From: a virus
Lineage: Duplodnaviria; Heunggongvirae; Uroviricota; Caudoviricetes
Length of the DNA: 35,253 nt
IMG/VR virus record: IMGVR_UViG_2778261009_000009
Direction: 5' to 3' (one strand)
Position 1 is the first letter of the stretch, and each line of letters starts with the position of its first letter. Below are positions 2-32,633 of the stretch, piece after piece. Position numbers and translations under genes: made by a program. The notes under the pieces were generated by a model. It ran no database searches. It was not told the DNA's origin and saw nothing but the letters and a program-made list of their open reading frames with translations.

Positions 2-568
2 TTAGCCTCTTATCTTGAATTCTGCTATAACTTTGCCGATGAATACAAGGTCATTAATGTTCATATCAACAATGATATTCCCATAGTTAATCTTAACTTT
101 ATTATCAGGAATTCTAATAACTTGTTTTATAGAATGCTTTCCATCAATGGAGATTAACCAATCACCATCAACTACATCTGTGAAATCCCTCTCAATAAAA
201 TAAGAGTTATTCCCGTTTGATATCACAGATGGTGATGATAAACCATCAGGAATGAACACTTTGTCAAACATTAGTGTTCCTGCATCCAATAGCACTCCAT
301 CAATCAATTTTATTTTTTGAATATTGATGATGTCAGAAGTTAAATATTCATGTTTAGGAGGTAAGCCTGTTACCAGCCACTTTATGTTTACTCCTGTTTC
401 GAGCGCGCACTGAATAACCCAATCAGAAGGGAATGAATCTCTCATGTAGCGTGTAGCAAGACTGCTTTTTGATATGCCTAGTTGTTCACATAACGCCTGT
501 CTTGTAGTGAACCCATAGGCTTCAACCATCCTTTCGATAGCTTTCTTTCCACCTTGACTAAAATCCAT
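2..568 (-). CDS. cI: 186-type CI immunity repressor (N-terminal HTH, no LexA-like Ser/Lys peptidase motif); ATG at 568 preferred over GTG at 673
   Basis: HTH-like segment GFTTRQALCEQLGISKSSLATRYM; AGGTGA Shine-Dalgarno 4 nt before ATG at 568; longer ORF would contain the divergent promoter. Confidence 0.65.
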   Translation of the reverse strand: MDFSQGGKKAIERMVEAYGFTTRQALCEQLGISKSSLATRYMRDSFPSDWVIQCALETGVNIKWLVTGLPPKHEYLTSDIINIQKIKLIDGVLLDAGTLMFDKVFIPDGLSSPSVISNGNNSYFIERDFTDVVDGDWLISIDGKHSIKQVIRIPDNKVKINYGNIIVDMNINDLVFIGKVIAEFKIRG

Positions 569-3350: not shown

Positions 3351-4177
3351 AAGAAATGCACCACGGAATTCATCATTTCCATGGGACGCCTGTCTGGGGA
3401 AGTGCTGGCGACGTTCATCGTATTGCGGTGAGCGGAGCTGGCGCTTTCGTCTCCTATGTACGACCAGATCAGATTGCGGCGTCCATTCAGCACGCTCAGG
3501 TCGTCGGCATTGATAACGGCGCATTTTCTGCATGGGTGCGTGGGCTAAAAATTAACTGGAGTGATTTTTATAAATGGCTCCTGAACTATTACCACCATCC
3601 TAAGGTCGCTTTTTTTGTCATTCCTGATGTTGTGGACGGAGGTGAACGTGACAATGATGCCCTGATAAACGAAGTTCCGAAAATGTTCTACGGGAAGGCA
3701 ACTCCCGTCTGGCATCTGCACGAGTCAATCGATCGGCTTATCGAGCTATGTCGTGAATGGCCTCGTGTCTGCTTTGGATCGTCTGGTGAATATGCGGCTA
3801 TCAGAACTGCGCACTGGCATCGTCGTATGCAGGACGCTTTTGAAGCAATTTATTGCCGACACAATTTCAAAACAGCTGTTCATGGTTTGCGCATGCTTGA
3901 CGGTCGTGTGTTGGGAAATTACCCACTGGCGACTGCCGACAGTACAAATCTTGCCTGCAATGTCCCCAAATTTAATAGCAAATATCCTGAGCTGACGCGG
4001 GCTATTCAGGAGGCTGAGTATTCGCGCAATCTGACGGAAAAGGAGCTGAAAGCTGTCATTCTGAAAAACCGTTGCGCAATTTTAAAAGGTGCAATTGAAG
4101 CTGTTCGCCCACCTTCAGTTTCTGATTGGCTGTCGAATGGTTTGCAGCCTTCACAGCTCGAACTGGAGATTGCGTAA
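3347..4177 (+). CDS. TGT-fold (tRNA-guanine transglycosylase-like, possibly DpdA-like) protein; hypothesis
   Basis: 276-aa ORF with motifs resembling TGT catalytic-Asp segments (VVGIDNGAF ~ LTDSGGFQ; FFVIPDVV ~ MIFDEC; GLRMLDGR ~ GIDMFDC); no CxCxxC zinc motif; start overlaps dam stop. Confidence 0.45.
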
Positions 4178-6518
4178 TGAACTACAGCTATTCCTGGAAT
4201 GCTGAGAAAAAAGCAATCAATCCTTACGTAGAGACGGAAGAGCAATCTTCAGTTTCTGCGCTTTCAAACCTGATCGCTCTGTACGCTGCCGATAACGAGC
4301 AGGAACAGCTGCGCCGCGAGGCACTGAGTGATCAGGTCTGGGAGCGTTATTTCTTTAATGAATCCCGTGATCCTGTCCAGCGCGAAATGGAGCAGGATAA
4401 GCTCATTAGTCGGGCAAAGCTGGCGCATGAGCAGCAGCGTTTTAATCCAGATATGGTCATTCTGGCGGACGTTAATGCCCAGCCTTCCCATATCAGCAAG
4501 CCACTGATGCAACGTATTGAATACTTCAGCAGCCTGGGCAGGCCAAAGGCTTATTCCCGCTATTTGCGTGAGACGATTAAGCCATGTCTGGAACGGCTGG
4601 AGCATGTACGCGACTGTCAGCTATCCACTTCTTTTCGCTTTATGGCAAGCCATGAAGGGCTGGACGGCCTGCTGATCCTGCCTGAAATGAGTCAGGATCA
4701 GGTGAAACGCCTGTCCACCCTGGTAGCTGCGCATATGAGCATGTGCCTTGATGCAGCTTGTGGCGATTTGTATGTCACCGATGACGTTAAGCCAGAAGAA
4801 ATCCGCAAGACATGGGAAAAGGTGGCAGCGGAAACCCTGCGTCTGGATGTTATCCCGCCTGCGTTTGAGCAACTCCGCCGGAAAAGAAACCGCCGTAAAC
4901 CCGTGCCCTATGAACTCATTCCGGGTTCGCTGGCGCGTATGTTGTGCGCTGACTGGTGGTACCGGAAATTATGGAAGATGCGTTGCGAATGGCGGGAAGA
5001 GCAGTTGCGTGCTGTCTGCCTGGTCAGCAAAAAGCATCTCCCTATGTCAGCTATGAAGCCGTGATGCATAAACGTGAGCAGCGCCGTAAGTCGCTGGAGT
5101 TTTTTCGTTCTCATGAACTGGTGAACGAAGACGGCGACACGCTGGACATGGAGGATGTGGTAAACGCCAGCAGCAGCAACCCTGCGCATCGCCGCAATGA
5201 GATGATGGCCTGTGTTAAAGGCCTGGAGCTTATCGCGGAAATGCGCGGTGACTGCGCCGTTTTCTACACCATCACCTGTCCGTCACGTTTCCATTCCACG
5301 CTAAATAATGGCAGGCCCAACCCAACTTGGACAAATGCGACGGTAAGACAAAGCAGTGATTATCTGGTCGGCATGTTTGCTGCATTTCGTAAGGCGATGC
5401 ACAAAGCCGGATTGCGGTGGTATGGCGTGCGGGTGGCTGAGCCGCATCATGACGGTACAGTTCACTGGCACCTGTTGTGTTTTATGCGCAAAAAAGACCG
5501 CCGCGCCATCACTGCATTACTGCGTAAGTTTGCCATCCGTGAAGACCGCGAGGAACTGGGCAATAACACTGGGCCGCGCTTTAAGTCTGAGTTGATTAAC
5601 CCGCGCAAAGGTACGCCAACAAGCTACATCGCGAAATACATCAGTAAGAACATTGACGGGCGTGGTCTGGCTGGCGAGATCAGCAAGGAAACGGGGAAAT
5701 CCCTGCGTGATAATGCTGAATACGTTAATGCCTGGGCGTCTCTGCATCGTGTTCAGCAATTCCGCTTCTTTGGCATTCCGGGGCGTCAGGCTTACCGTGA
5801 ACTGCGATTGCTGGCTGGTCAGGCGGCAAGGCAACAGGGGGACAAAAAAGCAGGTGCGCCGGTACTGGATAACCCGCGCCTTGATGCCATCCTGGCTGCT
5901 GCTGATGCTGGTTGTTTTGCCACCTACATCATGAAGCAGGGCGGCGTACTGGTTCCCCGCAAATATCACCTCATCAGAACCGCTTATGAAATCAACGAAG
6001 AGCCGACCGCCTATGGCGATCACGGCATTCGTATTTATGGCATCTGGTCACCTATTGCAGAGGGCAAGATCTGCACTCATGCCGTGAAGTGGAAAATGGT
6101 TCGTAAGGCCGTTGATGTTCAGGAGGCGGCAGCCGACCAGGGCGCTTGCGCCCCTTGGACTCGTGGCAATAACTGTCCCCCTGTTGAAAATTTGAACCAA
6201 TCAGGGGGCGATTTACCAGAAGCCAGTGGGCCGGAGTCGCTGCCGGATCTTCATAATCTGAGCGCGAAGGAACGACGGGAGCTGACGGCGCGGCTGAGAT
6301 TGGTAAAACCTAAGCGGCGGAAAGGGTACAAACAGCAGATTAGCAATCATCAGCGCCAGCAGCTTGATGCTGAACTGAGGTCTAGGGGGTTCGATGCGAG
6401 TGATACCGAGGTGGATCTGCTTTTGCGTGGTGGCAGTATCCCGTCCGGGGCCGGGCTGCGTTTGTTCTATCGAAACCAGCGCCTGCAGGAAGATGATAAA
6501 TGGCGGCAGTGGTACTAA
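4177..6518 (+). CDS. A: Replication initiation protein A (HUH rolling-circle endonuclease), interrupted by a frame change near 5029-5034 (ORFs 4177..5064 and 4956..6518)
   Basis: [16 protein letters not shown] motif and [12 protein letters not shown] tyrosine motif in the downstream frame; both frames resemble P2 A across the junction as recalled from memory. Confidence 0.8.
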
Positions 6519-6589: not shown

Positions 6590-7048
6590 CTATTTAGTTT
6601 TTTCAATCATAGTGCTTTCGGCTTTTGAATATACACTATTAATAGTGGTGATTTTTGTAGTTAATGCTATACAAACTAGACTCAGAAGTAAGACACCAAT
6701 TGATATTGTATTGTTGCTGAGTATTATATGTAGACAAATAGAATAAATTGCAACAATGACTATTGCTACGAAAACAAAGATTGCCATTAAATTATGTGCT
6801 TTGATGTAGTCCTCAGGGGTTAATATGTAGCTTATGTTTATGATTATAAATAAAATTAAAAATGCTCCCCCAATCCATTTGGGTAGGGCTGTTTCTTTTT
6901 TTGATACTGCAGGTGTGGTTCTTGGGATCGATTCTACGAAGGATTTAAGATTTCCCATGTCAGTATTGTTTAATGCTGCACTTTCTGCTTCGAATTTTGA
7001 AACAGTGCCATCAGGAAGGGTTGTAGTCCAGCTTATTTTTCCTGTCAT
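6590..7048 (-). CDS. cargo membrane protein (152 aa; about 55-aa soluble N-terminus then about 3 TM helices), unknown function
   Basis: AT-rich ORF; start ATG overlaps upstream stop (ATGA); AGGGA RBS; hydrophobic segments FLILFIIINISYIL, MAIFVFVAIVIVAIYSI, IGVLLLSLVCIAL. Confidence 0.6.
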   Translation of the reverse strand: MTGKISWTTTLPDGTVSKFEAESAALNNTDMGNLKSFVESIPRTTPAVSKKETALPKWIGGAFLILFIIINISYILTPEDYIKAHNLMAIFVFVAIVIVAIYSICLHIILSNNTISIGVLLLSLVCIALTTKITTINSVYSKAESTMIEKTK

Positions 7049-7419
7049 ACAACATCCCTTATTCTGAATATTCTATTAAAATCAATATCAACAGCAGAGT
7101 TCGACCACTCACTCTTTTGATTATCTTTAATTAGAATTGCTTTGTTCTCGTCAAAGATTATATTTGTACCACTAAACTCAATATGAGATAGGTCTCCTCT
7201 AAATATTTTTTGCTCAACGCTTTTGAATGCATCTTTTAATGATGCACACTCTTTTCTGAATAATGGTTTGGGGCTGTAAGTCCCTAAGTTTATAACTATT
7301 ACGCCACTACCATCTTTAGCAGGGTGAATGGAGAAAGATAGCGCTAATCCGTGATAGTGGGATTGTATTTTCTTCATTAATTTACGAACGTAATCATCAT
7401 ACCGCTTTCTATATATCAT
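7045..7419 (-). CDS. cargo soluble protein (124 aa), unknown function, first gene of two-gene operon
   Basis: AT-rich ORF translationally coupled to 6590..7048; candidate promoter TCGACA-18-TAATAT upstream on minus strand. Confidence 0.55.
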   Translation of the reverse strand: MIYRKRYDDYVRKLMKKIQSHYHGLALSFSIHPAKDGSGVIVINLGTYSPKPLFRKECASLKDAFKSVEQKIFRGDLSHIEFSGTNIIFDENKAILIKDNQKSEWSNSAVDIDFNRIFRIRDVV

Positions 7420-7583: not shown

Positions 7584-7627
7584 TTTACATTCATGGAACT
7601 ACGCATATACTGTATATGTGTACAGTG
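7584..7627 (+). promoter_or_regulatory. SOS-regulated promoter: -35 TTTACA (7584-7589), -10 TATACT (7606-7611), LexA box TACTGTATATGTGTACAGTG (7608-7627)
   Basis: Perfect CTGT-N8-ACAG palindrome (7610-7625) overlapping the -10 and start site, about 30 bp upstream of a strong RBS. Confidence 0.7.
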
Positions 7628-7657
7628 CTTTCTGTGTGTTTGGTGATAGGAGGGAAG

Positions 7658-7846
7658 ATGCAAGACTATTTTTTGGAGTCGTTGAAGCTCCAGCGCATTG
7701 ATTTTTTTGTCAAGCTTGTGGCGGCTAGTGAGTGTGATGATGAAGAGAAGCGACTGGCTATCCAGTGGGTTTCTGAGTTAACGGATGAGCTGATGGCAAA
7801 GATTCGTGCTCATGAATACAACCGCTCAATGGATCTTCCCAGTTAA
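7658..7846 (+). CDS. SOS-controlled small protein (62 aa), candidate Tum/DinI-like antirepressor
   Basis: ATG at 7658 with TAGGAGGGA RBS immediately downstream of LexA box; acidic small protein; weak resemblance to DinI C-terminus. Confidence 0.55.
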   Translation: MQDYFLESLKLQRIDFFVKLVAASECDDEEKRLAIQWVSELTDELMAKIRAHEYNRSMDLPS

Positions 7847-7924
7847 CAGCAGGAACGTTGCTGGCGTGAGAACTAGCTTCTTACGTCAGCAAGGTTAAAC
7901 AACGAGTACAACGAGGCGTTAGCC

Positions 7925-8191
7925 ATGGGTAAATCCAACAGCAAATTCCAGACCGTTTATGAGGGGCAGGCGCTTGAACGTGACGAACTTGGCGGATGGG
8001 TTTTGTTTCAGCGTCGTGTAGAGTATGGCGGCAAGTACTGGATGGGAATAACCATGGATGATGTGTTTTTGTTTGGCTCCGATCATCCTGTATCAGGTAG
8101 TGAGGCGATGGTCTTCATCATTGATTATGAGGGCGAGCAGCTCAGACGGTCTTTACCCGTTGGATACACCCCACAAATGCCGCTTTTCTGA
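7925..8191 (+). CDS. SOS-operon second gene (88 aa), unknown function
   Basis: ORF with GAGG RBS, same strand, followed by strong terminator. Confidence 0.5.
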   Translation: MGKSNSKFQTVYEGQALERDELGGWVLFQRRVEYGGKYWMGITMDDVFLFGSDHPVSGSEAMVFIIDYEGEQLRRSLPVGYTPQMPLF

Positions 8192-8258
8192 CAACCGGCT
8201 GGGTGCATGTCTATGCTGCATGAGATCGCATGATCGTTTGAGGATCGTTTTCGCTGAG

Positions 8259-8286
8259 GCCCGCCAGAACTGGCGGGCTTTTGCTT
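8259..8286 (+). terminator. rho-independent terminator of the SOS operon
   Basis: 8-bp GC stem gcccgcca/tggcgggc, loop gaac, followed by TTTTGCTT. Confidence 0.75.
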
Positions 8287-8327
8287 ATGTCATGCAGGTG
8301 CATGAAAATCGCTCCATAAAGCGGGCA

Positions 8328-8346
8328 GGCGTGGCGGGGATACGAG
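8328..8346. other. candidate cos site (cohesive-end sequence) GGCGTGGCGGGGATACGAG
   Basis: First 13 nt match the P2/186-family 19-nt cohesive end as I recall it (GGCG(A/T)GGCGGGGAAAGCA...); lies in non-coding DNA between right-end genes and the Q side. Confidence 0.35.
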
Positions 8347-8433
8347 CGCGCGCAATAGGGTTATGTACAATAAATTTTTGACGATCTTCGAGTGTTATTA
8401 GCTTGAGGCTGTCAGGGAAAATGAATACAATAA

Positions 8434-8498: not shown

Positions 8499-8606
8499 TT
8501 ATCTTTTTGATTTCTTCTTCGTATCATCGTGATCGAATACTTGGCGTGTAGGCGGCTTGCTGGGTGGTGGCGGCGGCGGTAAATTAGATTTCTCATTTTT
8601 GCTCAT
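8499..8606 (-). CDS. polyproline mini-ORF 3 (35 aa): MSKNEKSNLPPPPPPSKPPTRQVFDHDDTKKKSKR
   Basis: Hand-translated; own AGGA RBS; start lies inside the end of mini-ORF 2; paralogous to two upstream mini-ORFs. Confidence 0.35.
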   Translation of the reverse strand: MSKNEKSNLPPPPPPSKPPTRQVFDHDDTKKKSKR

Positions 8607-8724
8607 CTTTATTTTTCCTATTTTTTGGATCATTGCCATAGCTTTCTCTAACTAACCGAGTGATTGGCGGTTTAGGTGGTGGTGGTGGTGCTTCATTTTT
8701 TTTAGGATTTTTGTGTTCGGTCAT
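8593..8724 (-). CDS. polyproline mini-ORF 2 (43 aa): MTEHKNPKKNEAPPPPPKPPITRLVRESYGNDPKNRKNKDEQK
   Basis: In-frame portion of track ORF 8593..8778 starting at ATG 8724 with AAGGA RBS; overlaps neighbours in other frames. Confidence 0.4.
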   Translation of the reverse strand: MTEHKNPKKNEAPPPPPKPPITRLVRESYGNDPKNRKNKDEQK

Positions 8725-8839
8725 TTTTATCGTCCTTTCTGTCTCTTCGTAGTTGCCTTGCTTTTGAATCATCTTCAATAACGATCCTTCTTGCGGGTGG
8801 AGTAGGCCGAGGAGGTGGTGGCGGTAACGGTTTGGTCAT
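8702..8839 (-). CDS. polyproline mini-ORF 1 (45 aa): MTKPLPPPPPRPTPPARRIVIEDDSKARQLRRDRKDDKNDRTQKS
   Basis: Hand-translated; ATG overlaps stop of upstream membrane-protein gene (TAATG); AGGAGA RBS 5 nt upstream. Confidence 0.4.
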   Translation of the reverse strand: MTKPLPPPPPRPTPPARRIVIEDDSKARQLRRDRKDDKNDRTQKS

Positions 8840-9489
8840 TAAGTTCTCCTGACATTTTCAATAGGTATTATCAAATAGTTAGGGTCGTTATTTTTCCGCG
8901 GTGATGCTGCATCTAAATCAGCTAAAAGAAATATGACTACTGCTGCGATAATTGGAATCCATGACCAGACAAGATACTTTGTTGACTCAAATAGTTTACT
9001 GGAACGTTCCTCATTGATATTACTGTTCCAGCTAGCACATTCTCTGATTTCTTGATGAATAAACTCCCAAAGTTTATTATCAGGGTTATAACTTTCATCG
9101 TATGTAAGTCCATTGTCATCGCAATATTTTTTATATTTCACTTCGTAACTAATCAGATCTATGTGATAATCATGCAATGCTTTAGGTGCAGGGCAATACT
9201 TAAATTCATTTCCCCATATGACTTGTTTCAACAGAATTGATGATACAAGAACTAAACCAAATGAAATTGCGGTACATAAAAATACTAGGCAAGCTAGCCT
9301 TGGGTGGGATTCATAAGATGTATTTTTGGCGAGATAAGTGAGTATAGTTGCGGTAATGACAACTAATCCGAATTCGGCTTGAGCGCGAGTATGTATCTTG
9401 TCTTTATTCTCAATTTCTGAGAAATAAAGTTTTTCGTAAAATTCTAATGCTTTATCCTTTTTCATTTTTAGATTCAGTGTGATGTCCAT
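8839..9489 (-). CDS. cargo membrane protein (216 aa; two N-proximal TM helices, soluble Cys-containing middle domain, C-terminal TM helix), unknown function
   Basis: AT-rich ORF between portal terminator and mini-ORFs; hydrophobic segments FGLVVITATILTYL, LACLVFLCTAISFGLVLVSSILL, VWSWIPIIAAVVIFLL. Confidence 0.6.
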   Translation of the reverse strand: MDITLNLKMKKDKALEFYEKLYFSEIENKDKIHTRAQAEFGLVVITATILTYLAKNTSYESHPRLACLVFLCTAISFGLVLVSSILLKQVIWGNEFKYCPAPKALHDYHIDLISYEVKYKKYCDDNGLTYDESYNPDNKLWEFIHQEIRECASWNSNINEERSSKLFESTKYLVWSWIPIIAAVVIFLLADLDAASPRKNNDPNYLIIPIENVRRT

Positions 9490-9549: not shown

Positions 9550-10587
9550 CTAATCTAGCGATAATTCGTAATTTGTGAACCCTATCGCGTTTTTATCCAG
9601 CCATTTATTAAGCTCCTCAAAGCGTCTCTGAAGCGGAATAAGTTCATTACGAACGAATACGCGGCTGGCCTTCTCCACATCCCCAAATCCCCCAACATTA
9701 TTAGGCATAATCCCCATCATTTGCGGTGGCACACGATGCGCCGCCATCATGTCATCCCGGCTCACGTTCTTGATGTTTAGAAACTCATCCTTCGCCGCGA
9801 CTTCTGACAGAGGAATGATCTGAAGCCCATCCTTTTTGCCGTTAGGCGAGTACATAAACAGGTTGCGGAAGTTACCCGGTCCTTTGGCGCTTTTCATCGC
9901 ATTGCGGAGGTTGTTCACATCCTCCTGGTTCTGCGCGGCATCGGTCATGTACATGATGAAGCCTGCATGACTACCGTTAATGTAATACTTCCGGCGGAAC
10001 AGCGTGGCGGACTCGTTGAGCAAAGCGGATGGGATGGCAGAAAGATAGCCGGGCAGGCCGTAGATCTCCTGATTAATATCCGGTTCCATCAGATGAAAAA
10101 TGCTGCCTTTCGAGAACTGATACGGCTGGGTTGTCATACCGTATTGCACAAACCAGTAGGTATCCAGGTCTAACCCGCGTCGGGTATATTTTGCCAGAGC
10201 AGGCTCAAGGGCGATAACTTCACCGAAGCGGTTCGTGCGTTTCTCCAAGTAGGCGTTACCAAATACCAGATAGTCCTGCACAAAACGTGAAAAAGCCTGC
10301 TGGCTGAGCAGCGGGTGAGGGATGTAGGTACTGGTCAGTATGTTGCATTTCACCGCAATTGGTGAACTGTGATGCACGGCAGCGCGGAAGGTGCGCGCCA
10401 GTCCGTCAAAGCTCACTGGCGGCTCATACCAGCGATCTGTCTGTACGCATTCCACATAGTCCAGCAGTTCTCGGCGGTCCAGAACAGGAACGGGATCGCC
10501 GAAGCTGAATGCTTCGGCTGTAGTTTGACTTTTAAGCTGGATCTGTTTTGTCGCCGAAGCGCGGTTCTTCTTACTCTTTCCCATCAA
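9550..10587 (-). CDS. Q: portal protein (capsid portal, gpQ-like)
   Basis: 345-aa ORF colinear with P2 Q; start overlaps terminase stop (ATGATG with TGA). Confidence 0.85.
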   Translation of the reverse strand: MMGKSKKNRASATKQIQLKSQTTAEAFSFGDPVPVLDRRELLDYVECVQTDRWYEPPVSFDGLARTFRAAVHHSSPIAVKCNILTSTYIPHPLLSQQAFSRFVQDYLVFGNAYLEKRTNRFGEVIALEPALAKYTRRGLDLDTYWFVQYGMTTQPYQFSKGSIFHLMEPDINQEIYGLPGYLSAIPSALLNESATLFRRKYYINGSHAGFIMYMTDAAQNQEDVNNLRNAMKSAKGPGNFRNLFMYSPNGKKDGLQIIPLSEVAAKDEFLNIKNVSRDDMMAAHRVPPQMMGIMPNNVGGFGDVEKASRVFVRNELIPLQRRFEELNKWLDKNAIGFTNYELSLD

Positions 10588-12350
10588 AAAATCTCCACAA
10601 TATTGCTGGTATTGGCGGACTCGCCCTGCAGCGGTTCGTTAAACAGTGCGTGCATTGTTGCCCAGGCCAGATCGGCGTGACTGGCTTCTTCGCTGCGGCT
10701 GGCTTCATAGGTCGGGCGGTTGCCGCTGGCGGTGGTGGCGCGACGGATTGCCATGAATGACTGCGCTATGTCGGTGTGTCCGGCGTCAAACTCCAGACGG
10801 CGGTGGCTGATAATGTCGTAGGCCTTGAGTACCAGGGCGTTTTTAACATTGGGGTTGTAGACAAACTCCCGGACGGCAGGAAAGAACGCTTTTACGTTCT
10901 CGTAAACCCCGTGGCCGACCCCAGTTGAGTCGATGCCGATATAGGTCACGTTGTACTGTTCGGTCAGTTTTTTGATTGCGTCAGCCTGGGCGCGGAAGTC
11001 CATCCCGCGCCACTGGTGACGCTCAAGAATGCGGAACTTACCGCCCGGCACGGCTGGCGGTGCCACCACCACGCATCCGGCACTGTCGCCGTTCTGCGTA
11101 CCTTTTGCCGGGTCATAACCGATCCATACTTCGCGCCAGCCAAACGGGCGAAGGGCCAGTGCATGAAAGTCGGTCCAGACTTCCCAACTGTCCACCATGC
11201 ACGCCTGCAGCTCGCTGAGCGGAAACACGGACGCGAGATCGTCCACAAACTCGCACATCAGCAGGTTCTGGTATTCGTCCGGGCTGTACTCCATGCGCAA
11301 CTGGTCAAGGTCGAACAGGTTGCAGCCGCCGCGCACCGCATCTTCCACGGTGACTATCTGGCGGTATTGCCCGTCTGCGCACAGCAGGCCGGGGGCCAGA
11401 TTGCTGTGGGACAGGTCGATGTCCACCTTGTCAGCTTTGTTGCGTCCACGGTTGAACAGCGCACCGGACCAGAACGGATAAGCACTGTGGGTCAGGCTGG
11501 ATGGCGTGGAAAAATAGGTTTGTCGCCATTTCTTGTGAATAGCCATCCCGGAAGCCACTTTGCGCAGCTCCTGGAATTTCGGTATCCAGAAATATTCATC
11601 CAGATACAGGTTGCCGTGATAACTCTGGGCCGTGCGGGCATTGGTGCCGAGGAAGTAAAGCGTGGCCCCATTAGGAAGCACCATCGGATCGCCTTTTAGC
11701 TCCACCTCGACTTCTTTGGCGAAGTCGATGATGTATTGTTTAAAGACGTGGGCCTGAGCCTTACTGGCAGAAAGGAAAATCTGGTTACGTCCGGTCAGCA
11801 GGGCGTCAATCAGGGCTTCACGGGCAAAATAGAAGGTCGCGCCGATCTGGCGTGACTTCAGCAGGTTGCGGATGCGGTTGGTTTTTCCGGCTTCCCACCA
11901 GTGGCGCTGGTAGTTGAACATGGAGGAATGGAAGATTTCTTCCAGCTTCTCAATCTGTTCATCGTTGAAGACATTCTTTTCCGGCTGACGGCGCGGGCCC
12001 TTGTTGCGGTTGGCGACGTTAGGATTTAAGTCGGCTTCGTTGCCGCCATTGTTAAACTTGCCGATCCGCGCGTGGCGCTCCGACTGGCGCGCCAGCAGGT
12101 CAATCTCTTTGAAATCTTTCCCTTCTTTGTGCTCCTTCATAATGAGCTGGCAGTAGCGTGCGGCGGTGGTGAGCTGCATCTGATCCAGCGGCCCATAGTC
12201 ACCCCACTTGTCGCGTTTTTTCCAGCTGTGAACGGTTGCAACTTTCTCGCCCAGCATTTCAGCAATGCGGGCGACGCGGTATCCCTGAAAGTACAGCAGC
12301 ATGGCCTGCCGACGGGGATCGAGATCTGCGGGTGTCAGTGTGGTGTTCAT
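10584..12350 (-). CDS. P: terminase large (ATPase) subunit, gpP-like
   Basis: 588-aa ORF divergent from capsid operon, position and size as P2 P. Confidence 0.85.
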   Translation of the reverse strand: MNTTLTPADLDPRRQAMLLYFQGYRVARIAEMLGEKVATVHSWKKRDKWGDYGPLDQMQLTTAARYCQLIMKEHKEGKDFKEIDLLARQSERHARIGKFNNGGNEADLNPNVANRNKGPRRQPEKNVFNDEQIEKLEEIFHSSMFNYQRHWWEAGKTNRIRNLLKSRQIGATFYFAREALIDALLTGRNQIFLSASKAQAHVFKQYIIDFAKEVEVELKGDPMVLPNGATLYFLGTNARTAQSYHGNLYLDEYFWIPKFQELRKVASGMAIHKKWRQTYFSTPSSLTHSAYPFWSGALFNRGRNKADKVDIDLSHSNLAPGLLCADGQYRQIVTVEDAVRGGCNLFDLDQLRMEYSPDEYQNLLMCEFVDDLASVFPLSELQACMVDSWEVWTDFHALALRPFGWREVWIGYDPAKGTQNGDSAGCVVVAPPAVPGGKFRILERHQWRGMDFRAQADAIKKLTEQYNVTYIGIDSTGVGHGVYENVKAFFPAVREFVYNPNVKNALVLKAYDIISHRRLEFDAGHTDIAQSFMAIRRATTASGNRPTYEASRSEEASHADLAWATMHALFNEPLQGESANTSNIVEIF

Positions 12351-24542: not shown

Positions 24543-25109
24543 ATGCTTATTGGCTATGTACGCGTGTCAACAAATGACCAGAACACCGATTTGCAACGTA
24601 ATGCACTGAACTGCGCGGGATGTGAGCGGATTTTTGAGGATAAAATCAGTGGCACTAAGCCCGACAGACCGGGGCTTAAAAAACTGCTCAGGACACTATC
24701 GGCTGGAGACACTCTGGTTGTCTGGAAGCTGGACAGGTTGGGGCGCAGTATGCGGCATCTTGTTACGCTGATAGAAGAGTTGCGTCAGCGTGGCGTGAAT
24801 TTCCGAAGCCTGACTGACAGTATTGATACCAGCACCCCAATGGGCCGTTTCTTTTTTCATGTCATGGGGGCCCTGGCTGAAATGGAACGCGAACTGATAG
24901 TTGAACGTACCATGGCAGGGCTGGCTGCAGCTCGTGCCAAAGGCAGAGTAGGTGGACGCCGTCCTAAGTTGACCACCGAACAGTGGGCACAGATTGGGCG
25001 TTTACTCGAGGCCGGAGAATCAAGACAGCGTATTGCACTGATTTTTGATGTAGGCGTTTCTACCATTTATAGAAAATTTCCGGCAAATAAGAGCAATGAA
25101 TCCCCCTGA
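24543..25109 (+). CDS. serine DNA invertase (Hin/Gin/Cin/Pin family)
   Basis: N-terminal MLIGYVRVSTNDQ catalytic-serine motif, resolvase domain, C-terminal HTH; ATG 24543 with AGGGGA RBS. Confidence 0.85.
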   Translation: MLIGYVRVSTNDQNTDLQRNALNCAGCERIFEDKISGTKPDRPGLKKLLRTLSAGDTLVVWKLDRLGRSMRHLVTLIEELRQRGVNFRSLTDSIDTSTPMGRFFFHVMGALAEMERELIVERTMAGLAAARAKGRVGGRRPKLTTEQWAQIGRLLEAGESRQRIALIFDVGVSTIYRKFPANKSNESP

Positions 25110-32398: not shown

Positions 32399-32478
32399 CG
32401 CTGCCGCCATTTTGTCGCCATCGTTAAAAAACAGTGCTTCTAACATCATGATTTTAAACAGCTTAAATTTCAGGCAAC

Positions 32479-32521
32479 AAAAAACCCATCAACCTTGAAC
32501 CGAAATGGCGGGGTTGATGGG
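32479..32521 (-). terminator. rho-independent terminator, probably of host ybjL
   Basis: 10-bp stem cccatcaacc/ggttgatggg with 17-nt loop, followed on minus strand by T6 (plus A-run 32479-32484). Confidence 0.5.
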
Positions 32522-32633
32522 CTCCACAAAATGGGGACATCAAAGAAAAGCAGTGGCACTAATTAAGACTGATGCCCTGCGGAAAAGTTCTGCGGTTGTG
32601 CAAAAAAATTTCATTTTCAGGGCAACTTCAGTT

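What the first reader, a model, noticed from the sequence alone, without database searches (positions are those of the whole stretch)
7584..8191. LexA-box controlled small-gene operon, likely the SOS antirepressor (Tum-like) module
A near-consensus LexA box (TACTGTATATGTGTACAGTG, CTGT-N8-ACAG) overlaps the -10 (TATACT) of a TTTACA-16-TATACT promoter, followed by a strong RBS and ORFs of 62 and 88 aa, then a strong terminator. The CI repressor here has no LexA-like autocleavage motif, so induction probably needs an SOS-induced antirepressor, as in phage 186 where the LexA-repressed tum operon sits in the same right-end position. The 62-aa protein weakly resembles the DinI C-terminus. The module is divergent from the cargo operon, so the cargo promoter may be SOS-influenced too.
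Basis: partly seen in the sequence, partly recalled or inferred. Interest (0 to 1): 0.55.

Follow-up and report, generated by a model that had tools for sequence, protein, structure and literature searches.

The report
SOS-controlled prophage antirepressor (tumA) operon
This is the DNA-damage switch of a 186/P2-like E. coli prophage: a LexA-repressed promoter driving a 62-residue antirepressor (TumA) whose near-identical relative was already shown to be required for induction. It is ordinary in kind, but it is followed by a small unknown gene that in every phage examined sits under a LexA box.

Summary
A unique near-consensus LexA box (7608-7627) overlaps the -10 of a TTTACA-16-TATACT promoter. 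It is followed by a strong ribosome-binding site, ORF62 (7658-7846), ORF88 (7925-8191) and a GC hairpin plus T-run (8258-8286), which lies just before the phage cos site (8328-8346).

The prophage has a 186-type CI with no S24 autocleavage domain. ORF62 is a stand-alone homologue of the N-terminal half of 186 Tum (hhalign 95%, E 4e-8). It is 87-90% identical to Fels-2 STM2728 and to the 62-aa 'tum' gene of E. coli HS prophage DuoHS. Clean deletion of that gene, or lexA(Ind-), abolishes mitomycin C induction (primers mapped here).

Two side claims fail. ORF62 does not resemble DinI. Nothing supports SOS control of the divergent cargo, which is a lineage-specific insertion about 130 bp or more from the box.

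This copy has one LexA box where most relatives have a second, weaker box overlapping the first. It also lacks the usual DinI (TumB) gene and carries ORF88 instead.

ORF88 belongs to an uncharacterised family. In 87 of 87 loci that could be assessed, the gene lies under a LexA box, either its own or that of a Tum-type operon.

Verdict: a new member of a known kind, of low to moderate interest.

The parts
7584..7589 (+). -35 hexamer TTTACA of the tum promoter (equivalent of 186 p95)
   Evidence: TTTAC[AT] is kept in 77 of 79 distinct upstream regions of ORF62 homologues.
7606..7611 (+). -10 hexamer TATACT at a 16-nt spacing. The alternative TACTGT at 7608-7613 (18-nt spacing) is the hexamer annotated as -10 in 186 p95.
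   Evidence: TATACT is present in 70 of 79 relatives.
7608..7627 (.). Single LexA (SOS) box TACTGTATATGTGTACAGTG, covering the -10 hexamer and the expected transcription start
   Evidence: Unique in the window and absent from 100 shuffles at up to 3 mismatches. Rough heterology index 5.2-6.7, against 11.2 for the next best site. Conserved in 76 of 79 relatives. Aligns with the annotated LexA site of 186 p95.
7648..7653 (+). Ribosome-binding site AGGAGG of tumA
   Evidence: Invariant in the alignment with DuoHS, Fels-2, SopEphi and MLG42.
7658..7846 (+). tumA (ORF62): 62-aa stand-alone antirepressor, homologue of the N-terminal half of 186 Tum
   Evidence: phrog_698 at 2.8e-36, with cross-hits shared with 186 Tum. 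hhalign probability 95%, E 3.9e-8, residues 3-44 aligned to Tum 3-44. 87-90% identical to the Fels-2 and DuoHS genes. The DuoHS orthologue is the gene deleted as 'tum'. The AlphaFold2 model is a two-helix hairpin, pLDDT 88.
7925..8191 (+). ORF88: second gene of the operon, function unknown. It belongs to a LexA-linked small-protein family of temperate phages (phrog_2100) and occupies the place where relatives carry DinI/TumB.
   Evidence: In 87 of 87 loci that could be assessed the family gene lies under a LexA box. No match in Pfam, NCBIfam or PADLOC, and no fold match.
8258..8286 (+). Intrinsic-terminator-like hairpin GGCCCGCCAGAACTGGCGGGC plus TTTTGCTT, ending the operon inside the conserved cos region
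   Evidence: RNA fold. Conserved in DuoHS, Fels-2 and MLG42.
8328..8346 (.). cos cohesive-end sequence GGCGTGGCGGGGATACGAG. The physical right end of the phage genome falls after 8327, and the conserved cos region spans about 8205-8357.
   Evidence: The 186 record ends at the position aligned to window 8327. 186 nucleotides 1-19, annotated cos, align to 8328-8346. The region is 89-94% identical across many Peduoviridae.
2..568 (-). 186-type CI immunity repressor, the presumed target of TumA
   Evidence: PF07022 at 1.3e-28 plus PF16452 at 2.4e-26, with no S24 domain. 46% identical to DuoHS CI and 29% to 186 CI.

Best explanation
The region 7584-8286 is the SOS-induction module of a 186/Fels-2-type (Peduoviridae) prophage of E. 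coli. It is the right-most transcription unit of the phage genome, lying between replication gene A and cos.

Proposed mechanism:
1. In undamaged cells a LexA dimer sits on the single box at 7608-7627 and blocks the -10 hexamer and transcription start of the promoter.
2. DNA damage activates RecA, LexA cleaves itself, and the promoter fires.
3. The first product, the 62-residue helical-hairpin protein TumA, binds the 186-type CI repressor stoichiometrically and keeps it off its operators. The early lytic promoter then opens and the prophage enters lytic development.

What is shown and what is inferred:
- Shown at sequence level here: the box and promoter, homology to the Tum N-terminal half, the CI type, and the position in the genome.
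- Shown experimentally in a relative with 89% identical TumA (DuoHS): induction needs both this gene and cleavable LexA.
- Inferred from phage 186 biochemistry: direct binding of CI.

ORF88 is co-transcribed as an accessory SOS-induced gene of unknown function. It is not needed for the antirepressor step, because many relatives carry tumA alone. Two differences from most relatives may change the tightness and timing of induction (inference): this copy has one LexA box where they have a second, weaker overlapping box, and it lacks the DinI-like gene.
For: - The LexA box is unique in the window and not expected by chance. It overlaps the promoter.
- The promoter plus box architecture is conserved in 76-77 of 79 distinct relatives while flanking sequence diverges. 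It aligns with the annotated p95 and LexA site of 186.
- ORF62 and 186 Tum share PHROG families (phrog_698, phrog_8554, phrog_1993). Profile against sequence gives 95% probability, E 3.9e-8.
- ORF62 is 87-90% identical to Fels-2 STM2728 and to the DuoHS 62-aa ORF.
- PMC3121763 states that Fels-2 and PSP3 have tum split by a stop codon and that the upstream PSP3 gene carries the antirepressor activity.
- PMC12055606 reports that delta-tum and lexA(Ind-) abolish mitomycin C induction of DuoHS. Its deletion primers map exactly to the ATG and stop of the 62-aa ORF and leave the DinI-like gene intact.
- The repressor is 186-type with no autocleavage domain.
- Every IMG/VR locus with enough upstream DNA that encodes TumA also encodes a 186-type CI.
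- In about 10 loci tumA is followed directly by the cos region, so TumA is the constant core of the operon.
- The position just before cos matches 186.
Against: - No experiment exists on this exact sequence. LexA binding, SOS induction and TumA-CI contact are all inferred.
- BLASTP finds no alignment between ORF62 and 186 Tum. The homology rests on profile methods and on the conserved context.
- The window's CI is only 46% identical to DuoHS CI, so transferring function from DuoHS assumes TumA tolerates divergent CI proteins. That assumption is supported only by co-occurrence.
- Replication gene A carries a -1 frameshift in this window. Induction here may therefore not yield phage.
Confidence: 0.87

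Rival explanations
1. ORF88, not ORF62, is the antirepressor for this particular CI, or is required alongside ORF62. On this view it replaced DinI because this immunity type needs a different partner.
For: - ORF88-family genes are always LexA-linked, so they have some SOS-specific role.
- The window's CI differs from DuoHS CI (46% identity).
- The direct tumA-ORF88 arrangement is rare.
Against: - The identical tumA-ORF88 module occurs in strain EC11 with a DuoHS-type CI (98% identity). The window-type CI (100% identity) occurs in L072 with tumA plus DinI and no ORF88. ORF88 therefore does not track the CI type.
- The family also occurs, with its own LexA box, in P22-like and SSU5-like phages that lack 186-type CI.
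- Many relatives have tumA alone.
Confidence: 0.05
2. The operon modulates the host SOS response, in the manner of DinI acting on RecA filaments, rather than triggering prophage induction.
For:
- Relatives encode DinI in the same operon.
- The 186 record annotates the shorter Tum products as modulators of SOS induction.
Against: - Neither ORF62 nor ORF88 is related to DinI, and no DinI gene exists in the window.
- Deleting the DuoHS orthologue of ORF62 blocks induction but leaves recA-reporter SOS activity intact.
Confidence: 0.04
3. The module is intact in sequence but functionally moot in this host, because the prophage is defective through a frameshift in replication gene A. SOS would then derepress early genes without producing phage.
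For: Gene A is split into two overlapping frames (4126-5064 and 4956-6518) by the loss of one A in an A-run at about 5029, relative to DuoHS. Strain EC11, which has an identical tum module, has an intact A gene.
Against: - A single-base homopolymer difference is a common sequencing or assembly error.
- All other phage genes align colinearly with inducible DuoHS at 91-97% identity.
- This rival concerns the outcome of induction, not what the module is.
Confidence: 0.15

Closest known systems
The tum gene of E. coli HS prophage DuoHS (62-aa ORF, NC_009800 924619-924807), with the equivalent genes Fels-2 STM2728 and PSP3 TumA
   Same: - A 62-aa protein 87-90% identical to ORF62.
- The same -35 hexamer, ribosome-binding site and first LexA box position.
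- The same location between gene A and cos, and the same chromosomal attachment region (rcdA / rybB-ybjL).
- The rest of the prophage is about 96% identical to DuoHS.

   Different: - Those phages have a second, weaker LexA-like box overlapping the first at a +15 offset (DuoHS and Fels-2: 5 mismatches to the consensus). The window has one box.
- They carry a DinI-like TumB gene directly after tumA. The window has none and carries ORF88 instead.
- The window has a two-gene cargo inserted between A and the promoter.
- The window's CI is only 46% identical to DuoHS CI.
Phage 186 p95-tum operon (LexA-repressed antirepressor Tum, 146 aa)
   Same: - A LexA box over the -10 hexamer of the promoter.
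- The right-most operon before cos.
- A 186-type CI repressor without autocleavage.
- Tum residues 3-44 are homologous to ORF62 residues 3-44.

   Different: - 186 Tum is a fusion of the antirepressor half with a DinI-like half and is only about 16% identical to ORF62.
- The downstream gene in 186 is orf97 (243 aa), not an ORF88-type gene.
Gifsy-1/2/3 LexA-controlled dinI-antirepressor-irsA operons (GfoA, GftA)
   Same: Small LexA-controlled antirepressors that inactivate non-cleavable repressors by binding them, with a DinI homologue in the same operon in relatives (PMC3121763).
   Different: The Gifsy phages are lambdoid, their repressors and antirepressors belong to different families, and the gene order is reversed (dinI first). 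No sequence relationship was tested or claimed here.
Dual overlapping SOS boxes of colicin promoters (for example ColE1 cea)
   Same: Relatives such as Fels-2 and DuoHS carry TACTGTAAATATAAACAGTGGTTATA(C/T)(A/G)TACAGTA, which is two 20-mers overlapping by 5 nt. From memory, this is the same layout as the ColE1 operator.
   Different: The window itself has only one box. The comparison with colicins rests on my recollection of the ColE1 sequence and was not tested.

Membership tests
186-type LexA-controlled Tum antirepressor module | LexA box overlapping the promoter of the operon | tested here: met
   The box at 7608-7627 overlaps the -10 hexamer at 7606-7611. It is unique in the window and absent from 100 shuffles.
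186-type LexA-controlled Tum antirepressor module | Located between replication gene A and cos at the right end of a P2/186-like genome | tested here: met
   Gene A ends at 6518 and cos lies at 8328-8346.
186-type LexA-controlled Tum antirepressor module | Encodes a protein homologous to the antirepressor (N-terminal, non-DinI) part of Tum | tested here: met
   hhalign probability 95%, E 3.9e-8. Reciprocal PHROG cross-hits. Plain BLASTP is negative.
186-type LexA-controlled Tum antirepressor module | The cognate immunity repressor is 186-type CI without an S24 autocleavage domain | tested here: met
   PF07022 plus PF16452 only. Every TumA locus with upstream data has a 186-type CI.
186-type LexA-controlled Tum antirepressor module | The protein binds CI and prevents operator binding, and the gene is required for SOS induction | not testable with these tools
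   Requirement for induction was shown for the 89%-identical DuoHS gene (PMC12055606). CI binding was shown for 186 Tum (Shearwin 1998, as cited in PMC3121763 and PMC7708051).
Split TumA/TumB operon (PSP3, Fels-2, DuoHS type) | Stand-alone TumA of about 62 aa as the first gene | tested here: met
   87-90% identity over the full length.
Split TumA/TumB operon (PSP3, Fels-2, DuoHS type) | DinI-like TumB gene immediately downstream | tested here: not met
   tblastn with DuoHS DinI finds nothing in the window. ORF88 has no DinI Pfam hit and an hhalign probability of 0.07%.
   No Pfam or NCBIfam hit. hhalign probability 0.9%. The predicted fold is an all-helical hairpin.
Dual overlapping SOS-box operator (colicin-like; present in Fels-2 and DuoHS) | Second LexA-like 20-mer offset by +15 nt from the first | tested here: not met
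   The window 20-mer at the +15 offset has 15 mismatches to the consensus. Relatives mostly have 4-6.
Known anti-phage defence systems (for ORF88 and the cargo genes) | Match to a PADLOC model | tested here: not met
   None of the 8 proteins tested has a hit at E up to 0.01.

The most novel reading that the evidence does not exclude
ORF88 may represent a previously unrecognised class of SOS-induced temperate-phage effector.

- The family comprises about 550 clusters in Enterobacterales, all annotated as hypothetical.
- In 87 of 87 loci that could be assessed, the gene is under a LexA box. In lambdoid/P22-like, SSU5-like and Serratia phages it has its own box 13-20 nt upstream of the ATG. In 186-like phages it lies inside a Tum-type operon.
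- Most members end in an acidic tail of the form ...DFDDDF-x-L(F/T). From memory, this resembles the C-terminal tip of SSB (DFDDDIPF), the docking peptide for many replication and repair enzymes.
- The protein could therefore compete with SSB for host partners during the SOS response.

A second, more modest reading concerns TumA. It stays at least 89% identical next to more than 50 different CI alleles and is freely reshuffled with them. This suggests a pan-immunity antirepressor that targets the conserved CI N-terminal domain and could cross-induce heteroimmune co-resident prophages.
Probability: 0.2. Interest if true: 0.65.

Novelty: new member of a known kind. Interest (0 to 1): 0.3.

Why it matters
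For the finding as given, the value is mainly annotation.

- The 62-aa gene and its 803 database clusters are labelled 'hypothetical' everywhere and have no Pfam or NCBIfam model. Yet this gene is the switch that decides whether 186/Fels-2-type prophages respond to DNA damage. These prophages are common: 661 of 5426 complete E. coli genomes match part of this region.
- Recognising tumA plus a LexA box gives a simple marker for SOS-inducible P2-like prophages, as opposed to non-inducible P2-type ones.
- The variant features here (one LexA box, no DinI) provide natural material for asking how operator number and DinI shape induction threshold and timing.

The more interesting lead is ORF88. It belongs to a small, widespread phage gene family that is always wired to LexA and has no known function.

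Tried and rejected
- BLASTP of ORF62 and of ORF88 against 186 Tum found no alignment. The homology of ORF62 needed profiles.
- Pfam, NCBIfam and PADLOC gave nothing for ORF62, ORF88 or the cargo proteins. The weak RdrD and YfhO hits to the 152-aa cargo protein fall far below their cut-offs and were disregarded.
- The idea that ORF62 or ORF88 resembles DinI was rejected by hhalign.
- Word-based homologue searches returned only 'hypothetical' names.
- Rfam found no RNA family in or near the module. The only hit in the window is host RybB.
- There is no tandem repeat structure in the proline-rich small-ORF region.
- A literature search for an SSB-tail mimic among SOS or prophage proteins found nothing relevant.
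- SOS control of the divergent cargo was considered and rejected. There is no second box, the distance is too large for promoter occlusion, and the cargo is a lineage-specific insertion.
- ORF88 as a CI-type-specific partner was rejected because it does not co-vary with CI type.
Full report
**Context.** The window is a 186/P2-like (Peduoviridae) prophage of E. coli.
- It encodes a 186-type CI repressor at 2-568 on the minus strand (PF07022 plus PF16452, no S24 domain), a 186-type CII (PF06892) and a DUF5347 protein.
- It also has replication gene A at about 4135-6518, portal and terminase genes at 9550-12350 on the minus strand, and a full set of head, tail and lysis genes.
- It aligns colinearly, at 91-97% nucleotide identity over most of its length, with the prophage of E. 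coli HS named DuoHS, which sits between rcdA and ybjL.
- The sRNA gene rybB at 32476-32554 marks the host flank.
- The 861-bp region around the finding is 100% identical in 15 or more complete E. coli genomes. Part of it matches in 661 of 5426 genomes. Both ORFs are annotated 'hypothetical protein'.

**Observation.**
- The promoter is TTTACA (7584-7589), a 16-nt spacer, then TATACT (7606-7611). It matches 10 of 12 consensus positions.
- The LexA box is TACTGTATATGTGTACAGTG at 7608-7627.
- The bare pattern CTGT-N8-ACAG is weak evidence, since 37 of 100 shuffles contain one.
- The 20-mer as a whole lies within three mismatches of the SOS-box consensus. It is the only such site in 35 kb, and none appeared in 100 shuffles.
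- All three mismatches lie outside the CTGT/ACAG arms.
- A rough heterology index, from a matrix rebuilt from my memory of about 20 E. coli boxes and therefore approximate, is 5.2-6.7. That is comparable to recA, uvrB and ruvAB in the same matrix. The next best site in the window scores 11.2.
- AGGAGG at 7648-7653 precedes the ATG at 7658 of ORF62 (7658-7846). GAGG at 7913-7916 precedes the ATG at 7925 of ORF88 (7925-8191).
- An 11-pair GC-rich hairpin at 8258-8278 is followed by TTTTGCTT.

**Position in the phage genome.**
- The 186 genome record ends at the base that aligns to window 8327.
- Its first 19 nucleotides, annotated as the cos cohesive end, align to window 8328-8346. Fifteen of the 19 are identical, including the first 13.
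- The operon is therefore the last transcription unit before the physical right end of the phage DNA, as p95-tum is in 186.
- The terminator hairpin lies inside the conserved cos region at about 8205-8357. This explains why that stretch is 89-94% identical in many Klebsiella, Salmonella and Escherichia phages.

**What ORF62 is.**
- BLASTP against 186 Tum finds nothing.
- ORF62 matches phrog_698 at 2.8e-36, and residues 7-44 of 186 Tum match the same family at 2.4e-5.
- Conversely, ORF62 matches phrog_8554 (4e-8) and phrog_1993 (2e-3). The Tum N-terminal half matches both strongly.
- A search of 1.84 billion representative proteins gave 68 relatives, mostly 55-75 residues long.
- A profile of 30 of these aligns ORF62 residues 3-44 to Tum residues 3-44 with 95% probability, E 3.9e-8. 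The shared motif runs roughly E-x3-(L/I)-(Q/E)-R-(I/V)-x-(L/M)-x2-(R/K)-L-x5-C-x3-(D/E)-(K/R)-x-(L/I)-A-x4-(A/S)-E-(L/I).
- The DinI-like part of Tum is residues 72-142, so ORF62 corresponds to the other half.
- ORF62 is not related to DinI: hhalign probability 0.9% and no Pfam hit.
- It is predicted as a simple two-helix hairpin, helices 2-23 and 28-58, pLDDT 88.

**Experimental anchor.**
- ORF62 is 87-90% identical to Fels-2 STM2728, SopEphi orf10, a Yersinia phage MLG42 protein and the 62-aa ORF of DuoHS.
- Lemire et al. (PMC3121763) record that Fels-2 and PSP3 have tum split by a stop codon. [quoted passage not shown] The Fels-2 record calls its DinI gene 'similar to TumB of PSP3'.
- The Phollow study (PMC12055606) shows that delta-tum and lexA(Ind-) both abolish mitomycin C-induced lysis and virion formation of DuoHS. 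The SOS reporter still fires in delta-tum.
- The paper does not give coordinates, so I mapped its deletion primers from Supplementary file 3.
- The primers match DuoHS uniquely at 24599-24621 and 24805-24827 of locus L005. They fuse the ATG to the TGA of exactly the 62-aa ORF and leave the DinI-like gene intact.
- The closest characterised relative of ORF62 is thus genetically required for SOS induction.

**Comparative support for the regulatory reading.**
- Eighty IMG/VR loci encode TumA at 89% identity or more.
- Taking these together with the reference phages, 77 of 79 distinct upstream regions keep TTTAC[AT], 76 keep CTG-N10-CAG at the same place, and 75 are within 4 mismatches of the 20-mer consensus.
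- The sequence further upstream differs completely between lineages.
- Every locus with enough upstream DNA encodes a 186-type CI.
- TumA is always the first gene. It is followed by DinI in 54 loci, directly by the cos region in about 10, and by other genes in the rest. TumA is therefore the constant core of the operon.

**How this copy differs.**
1. It has one LexA box. Most relatives carry a second, weaker box overlapping the first at a +15 offset (49 of 79 within 6 mismatches of the consensus). One example is TACTGTAAATATAAACAGTGGTTATACATACAGTA in DuoHS. The window 20-mer at that offset has 15 mismatches. From memory, the double arrangement resembles colicin operators, where it tightens and delays expression. 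Whether the single box makes this prophage leakier or faster is inference.
2. There is no DinI/TumB gene anywhere in the window. ORF88 follows tumA after 78 nt.
3. A two-gene, minus-strand cargo (6590-7419) is inserted between A and the promoter. DuoHS has only about 155 bp there.
4. The CI is a different allele, 46% identical to DuoHS CI. The N-terminal domain is similar and the C-terminal domain has diverged.

**TumA and CI.**
- Fifty-three distinct CI proteins accompany TumA proteins that are at least 89% identical.
- Relative to the window's CI, their N-terminal 75 residues are a median 55% identical and the remainder 28%. The invariant positions cluster in the N-terminal domain.
- The two TumA variants and the CI alleles occur in all combinations: the window has window-type TumA with window-type CI, EC11 has identical TumA with 98% DuoHS-type CI, and L072 has DuoHS-type TumA with 100% window-type CI.
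- This pattern is what a rather unspecific antirepressor contacting a conserved N-terminal surface would produce. It is co-occurrence evidence only.

**ORF88.**
- It matches phrog_2100 (2.4e-19, function unknown) and nothing in Pfam, NCBIfam or PADLOC.
- A profile search finds 550 clusters in Enterobacterales, all 'hypothetical'.
- In Cartapus, Klebsiella phage phi12.1, L040 and L085 the homologue follows DinI in the tum operon.
- In unrelated phages it has its own near-consensus LexA box over a sigma-70-like promoter. These are P22-like SE1 (TACTGTATGAAAATACAGTA), SSU5 (CACTGTTTATATATACAGTA) and Serratia BZS1 (TACTGTATACATAAACAGTA).
- Across 88 loci, 33 have their own box ending 13-20 nt before the ATG, with 20 distinct box sequences.
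- Another 54 lie behind a LexA box inside a Tum-type operon, headed by TumA, by other 60-aa Tum-N-like proteins, or by fused 146-aa Tum.
- One locus is truncated.
- All 87 loci that could be assessed are therefore LexA-linked.
- Most family members end in an acidic tail. FD[DEAP][DNE][FY]xL lies at the C-terminus in 68 of 106, 47 of 106 end in LF, and the mean net charge of the last 15 residues is -3.1.
- From memory, this tail resembles the SSB C-terminal tip DFDDDIPF. That is a lead, not a test.
- The window's ORF88 belongs to a small divergent subgroup. Its tail (…YTPQMPLF, net +2) has lost the acidic part.
- My best guess, at low confidence, is an SOS-phase accessory factor acting on host DNA-metabolism proteins. 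It is not required for the antirepressor step.

**The cargo claim.** The only LexA box lies about 190 bp from the cargo start codon at 7419. It is about 130 bp from the nearest minus-strand promoter-like site at 7478-7449. No other box-like site exists in the window. LexA represses by occluding promoters, so an effect on the cargo is unlikely.

**Verdict.** The module is a new, slightly variant member of a known and experimentally characterised kind: the TumA-type SOS antirepressor operon of 186/Fels-2-like phages. The DinI resemblance and the cargo suggestion are not supported. The most interesting by-product is the strict LexA linkage of the uncharacterised ORF88 family.

Noticed in passing
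window 7925-8191; loci L006-L010, L092-L171: ORF88 belongs to an uncharacterised family of about 550 clusters. In 87 of 87 loci that could be assessed, the gene lies under a LexA box. In 33 loci it has its own box 13-20 nt upstream of the ATG (lambdoid/P22-like, SSU5-like and Serratia phages). In 54 loci it sits inside a LexA-headed Tum-type operon.
   Followed up: yes
C-termini of ORF88-family proteins (alignment A7, P0005-P0122): Most family members end in an acidic tail such as ...DFDDDFTL(T/F). The strict motif is present in 68 of 106, 47 of 106 end in LF, and the mean net charge of the last 15 residues is -3.1. From memory, this resembles the SSB C-terminal tip. The window's own ORF88 has an atypical basic tail...RRSLPVGYTPQMPLF.
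   Followed up: partly
window ~5029 (gene A, about 4135-6518): Replication gene A is split into two overlapping frames (4126-5064 and 4956-6518) by a run of five A's where DuoHS has six. Strain EC11, which has the identical tum module, has an intact A gene. This is either a real inactivating frameshift or a homopolymer sequencing error.
   Followed up: partly
window 6590-7419 (minus strand): A two-gene cargo is inserted between gene A and the tum promoter. It encodes a 152-aa protein with predicted membrane segments and a protein of about 110-124 aa. DuoHS lacks the insertion. Both proteins match PHROGs of unknown function and have no PADLOC, Pfam or NCBIfam match above threshold.
   Followed up: partly
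window 8499-9489 (minus strand): Left-end cargo lies between cos and the portal gene. It comprises a 216-aa protein with hydrophobic stretches (phrog_36961, function unknown) followed by three small overlapping or adjacent ORFs of 45-61 aa. Each small ORF contains a PPPPP(P) run and is lysine- and arginine-rich. In EC11 this position holds an Old-like ATP-dependent nuclease instead.
   Followed up: no
window 8205-8357: This is the conserved cos region. The 186 right end aligns up to 8327 and the 19-nt cohesive end aligns to 8328-8346. The spurious 107-aa ORF at 8058-8381 and the recurrent 'MKSHDRLRIVFAEARQ...' ORF in other loci are read-throughs of this non-coding element.
   Followed up: yes
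L003, L005 and most of L042-L091, upstream of tumA: Most relatives carry two LexA boxes overlapping by 5 nt (for example TACTGTAAATATAAACAGTGGTTATACATACAGTA). From memory, colicin promoters have the same layout. A subgroup that includes the window has a single box.
   Followed up: partly
L012-L091 compared with window 2-568: TumA stays at least 89% identical next to 53 distinct 186-type CI proteins, whose C-terminal domains are a median 28% identical to the window's. TumA variants and CI alleles occur in all combinations across the window, EC11 and L072. This suggests a promiscuous antirepressor and possible cross-induction of heteroimmune prophages.
   Followed up: partly
L093-L096, L103-L113, L116, L128, L130, L134, L138: Another family of 60-aa proteins occupies the first position of LexA-box operons (for example MVVEDVSRLQHQMACVQFIAEISLIANCKPSDLKLALSLI...). 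These are followed by DinI and/or ORF88-like genes. They are probably further stand-alone variants resembling the Tum N-terminal half.
   Followed up: no
L001 3310-3325, L004 2794-2809, L044 7216-7231: A second CTGT-N8-ACAG match lies inside the coding sequence of the DinI-like gene in several relatives. Its significance is unknown.
   Followed up: no
window 32476-32554 (minus strand): The host sRNA gene rybB (Rfam RF00110, 105 bits) lies just beyond the ogr-like gene. It marks the prophage-host junction next to ybjL.
   Followed up: no
window 7658-7846 and its database relatives: There is an annotation gap. All 803 clusters of TumA homologues are unnamed or 'hypothetical', apart from one phage record that calls it a 'levan regulatory domain protein'. 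No Pfam or NCBIfam model exists, despite published genetics for this gene.
   Followed up: yes
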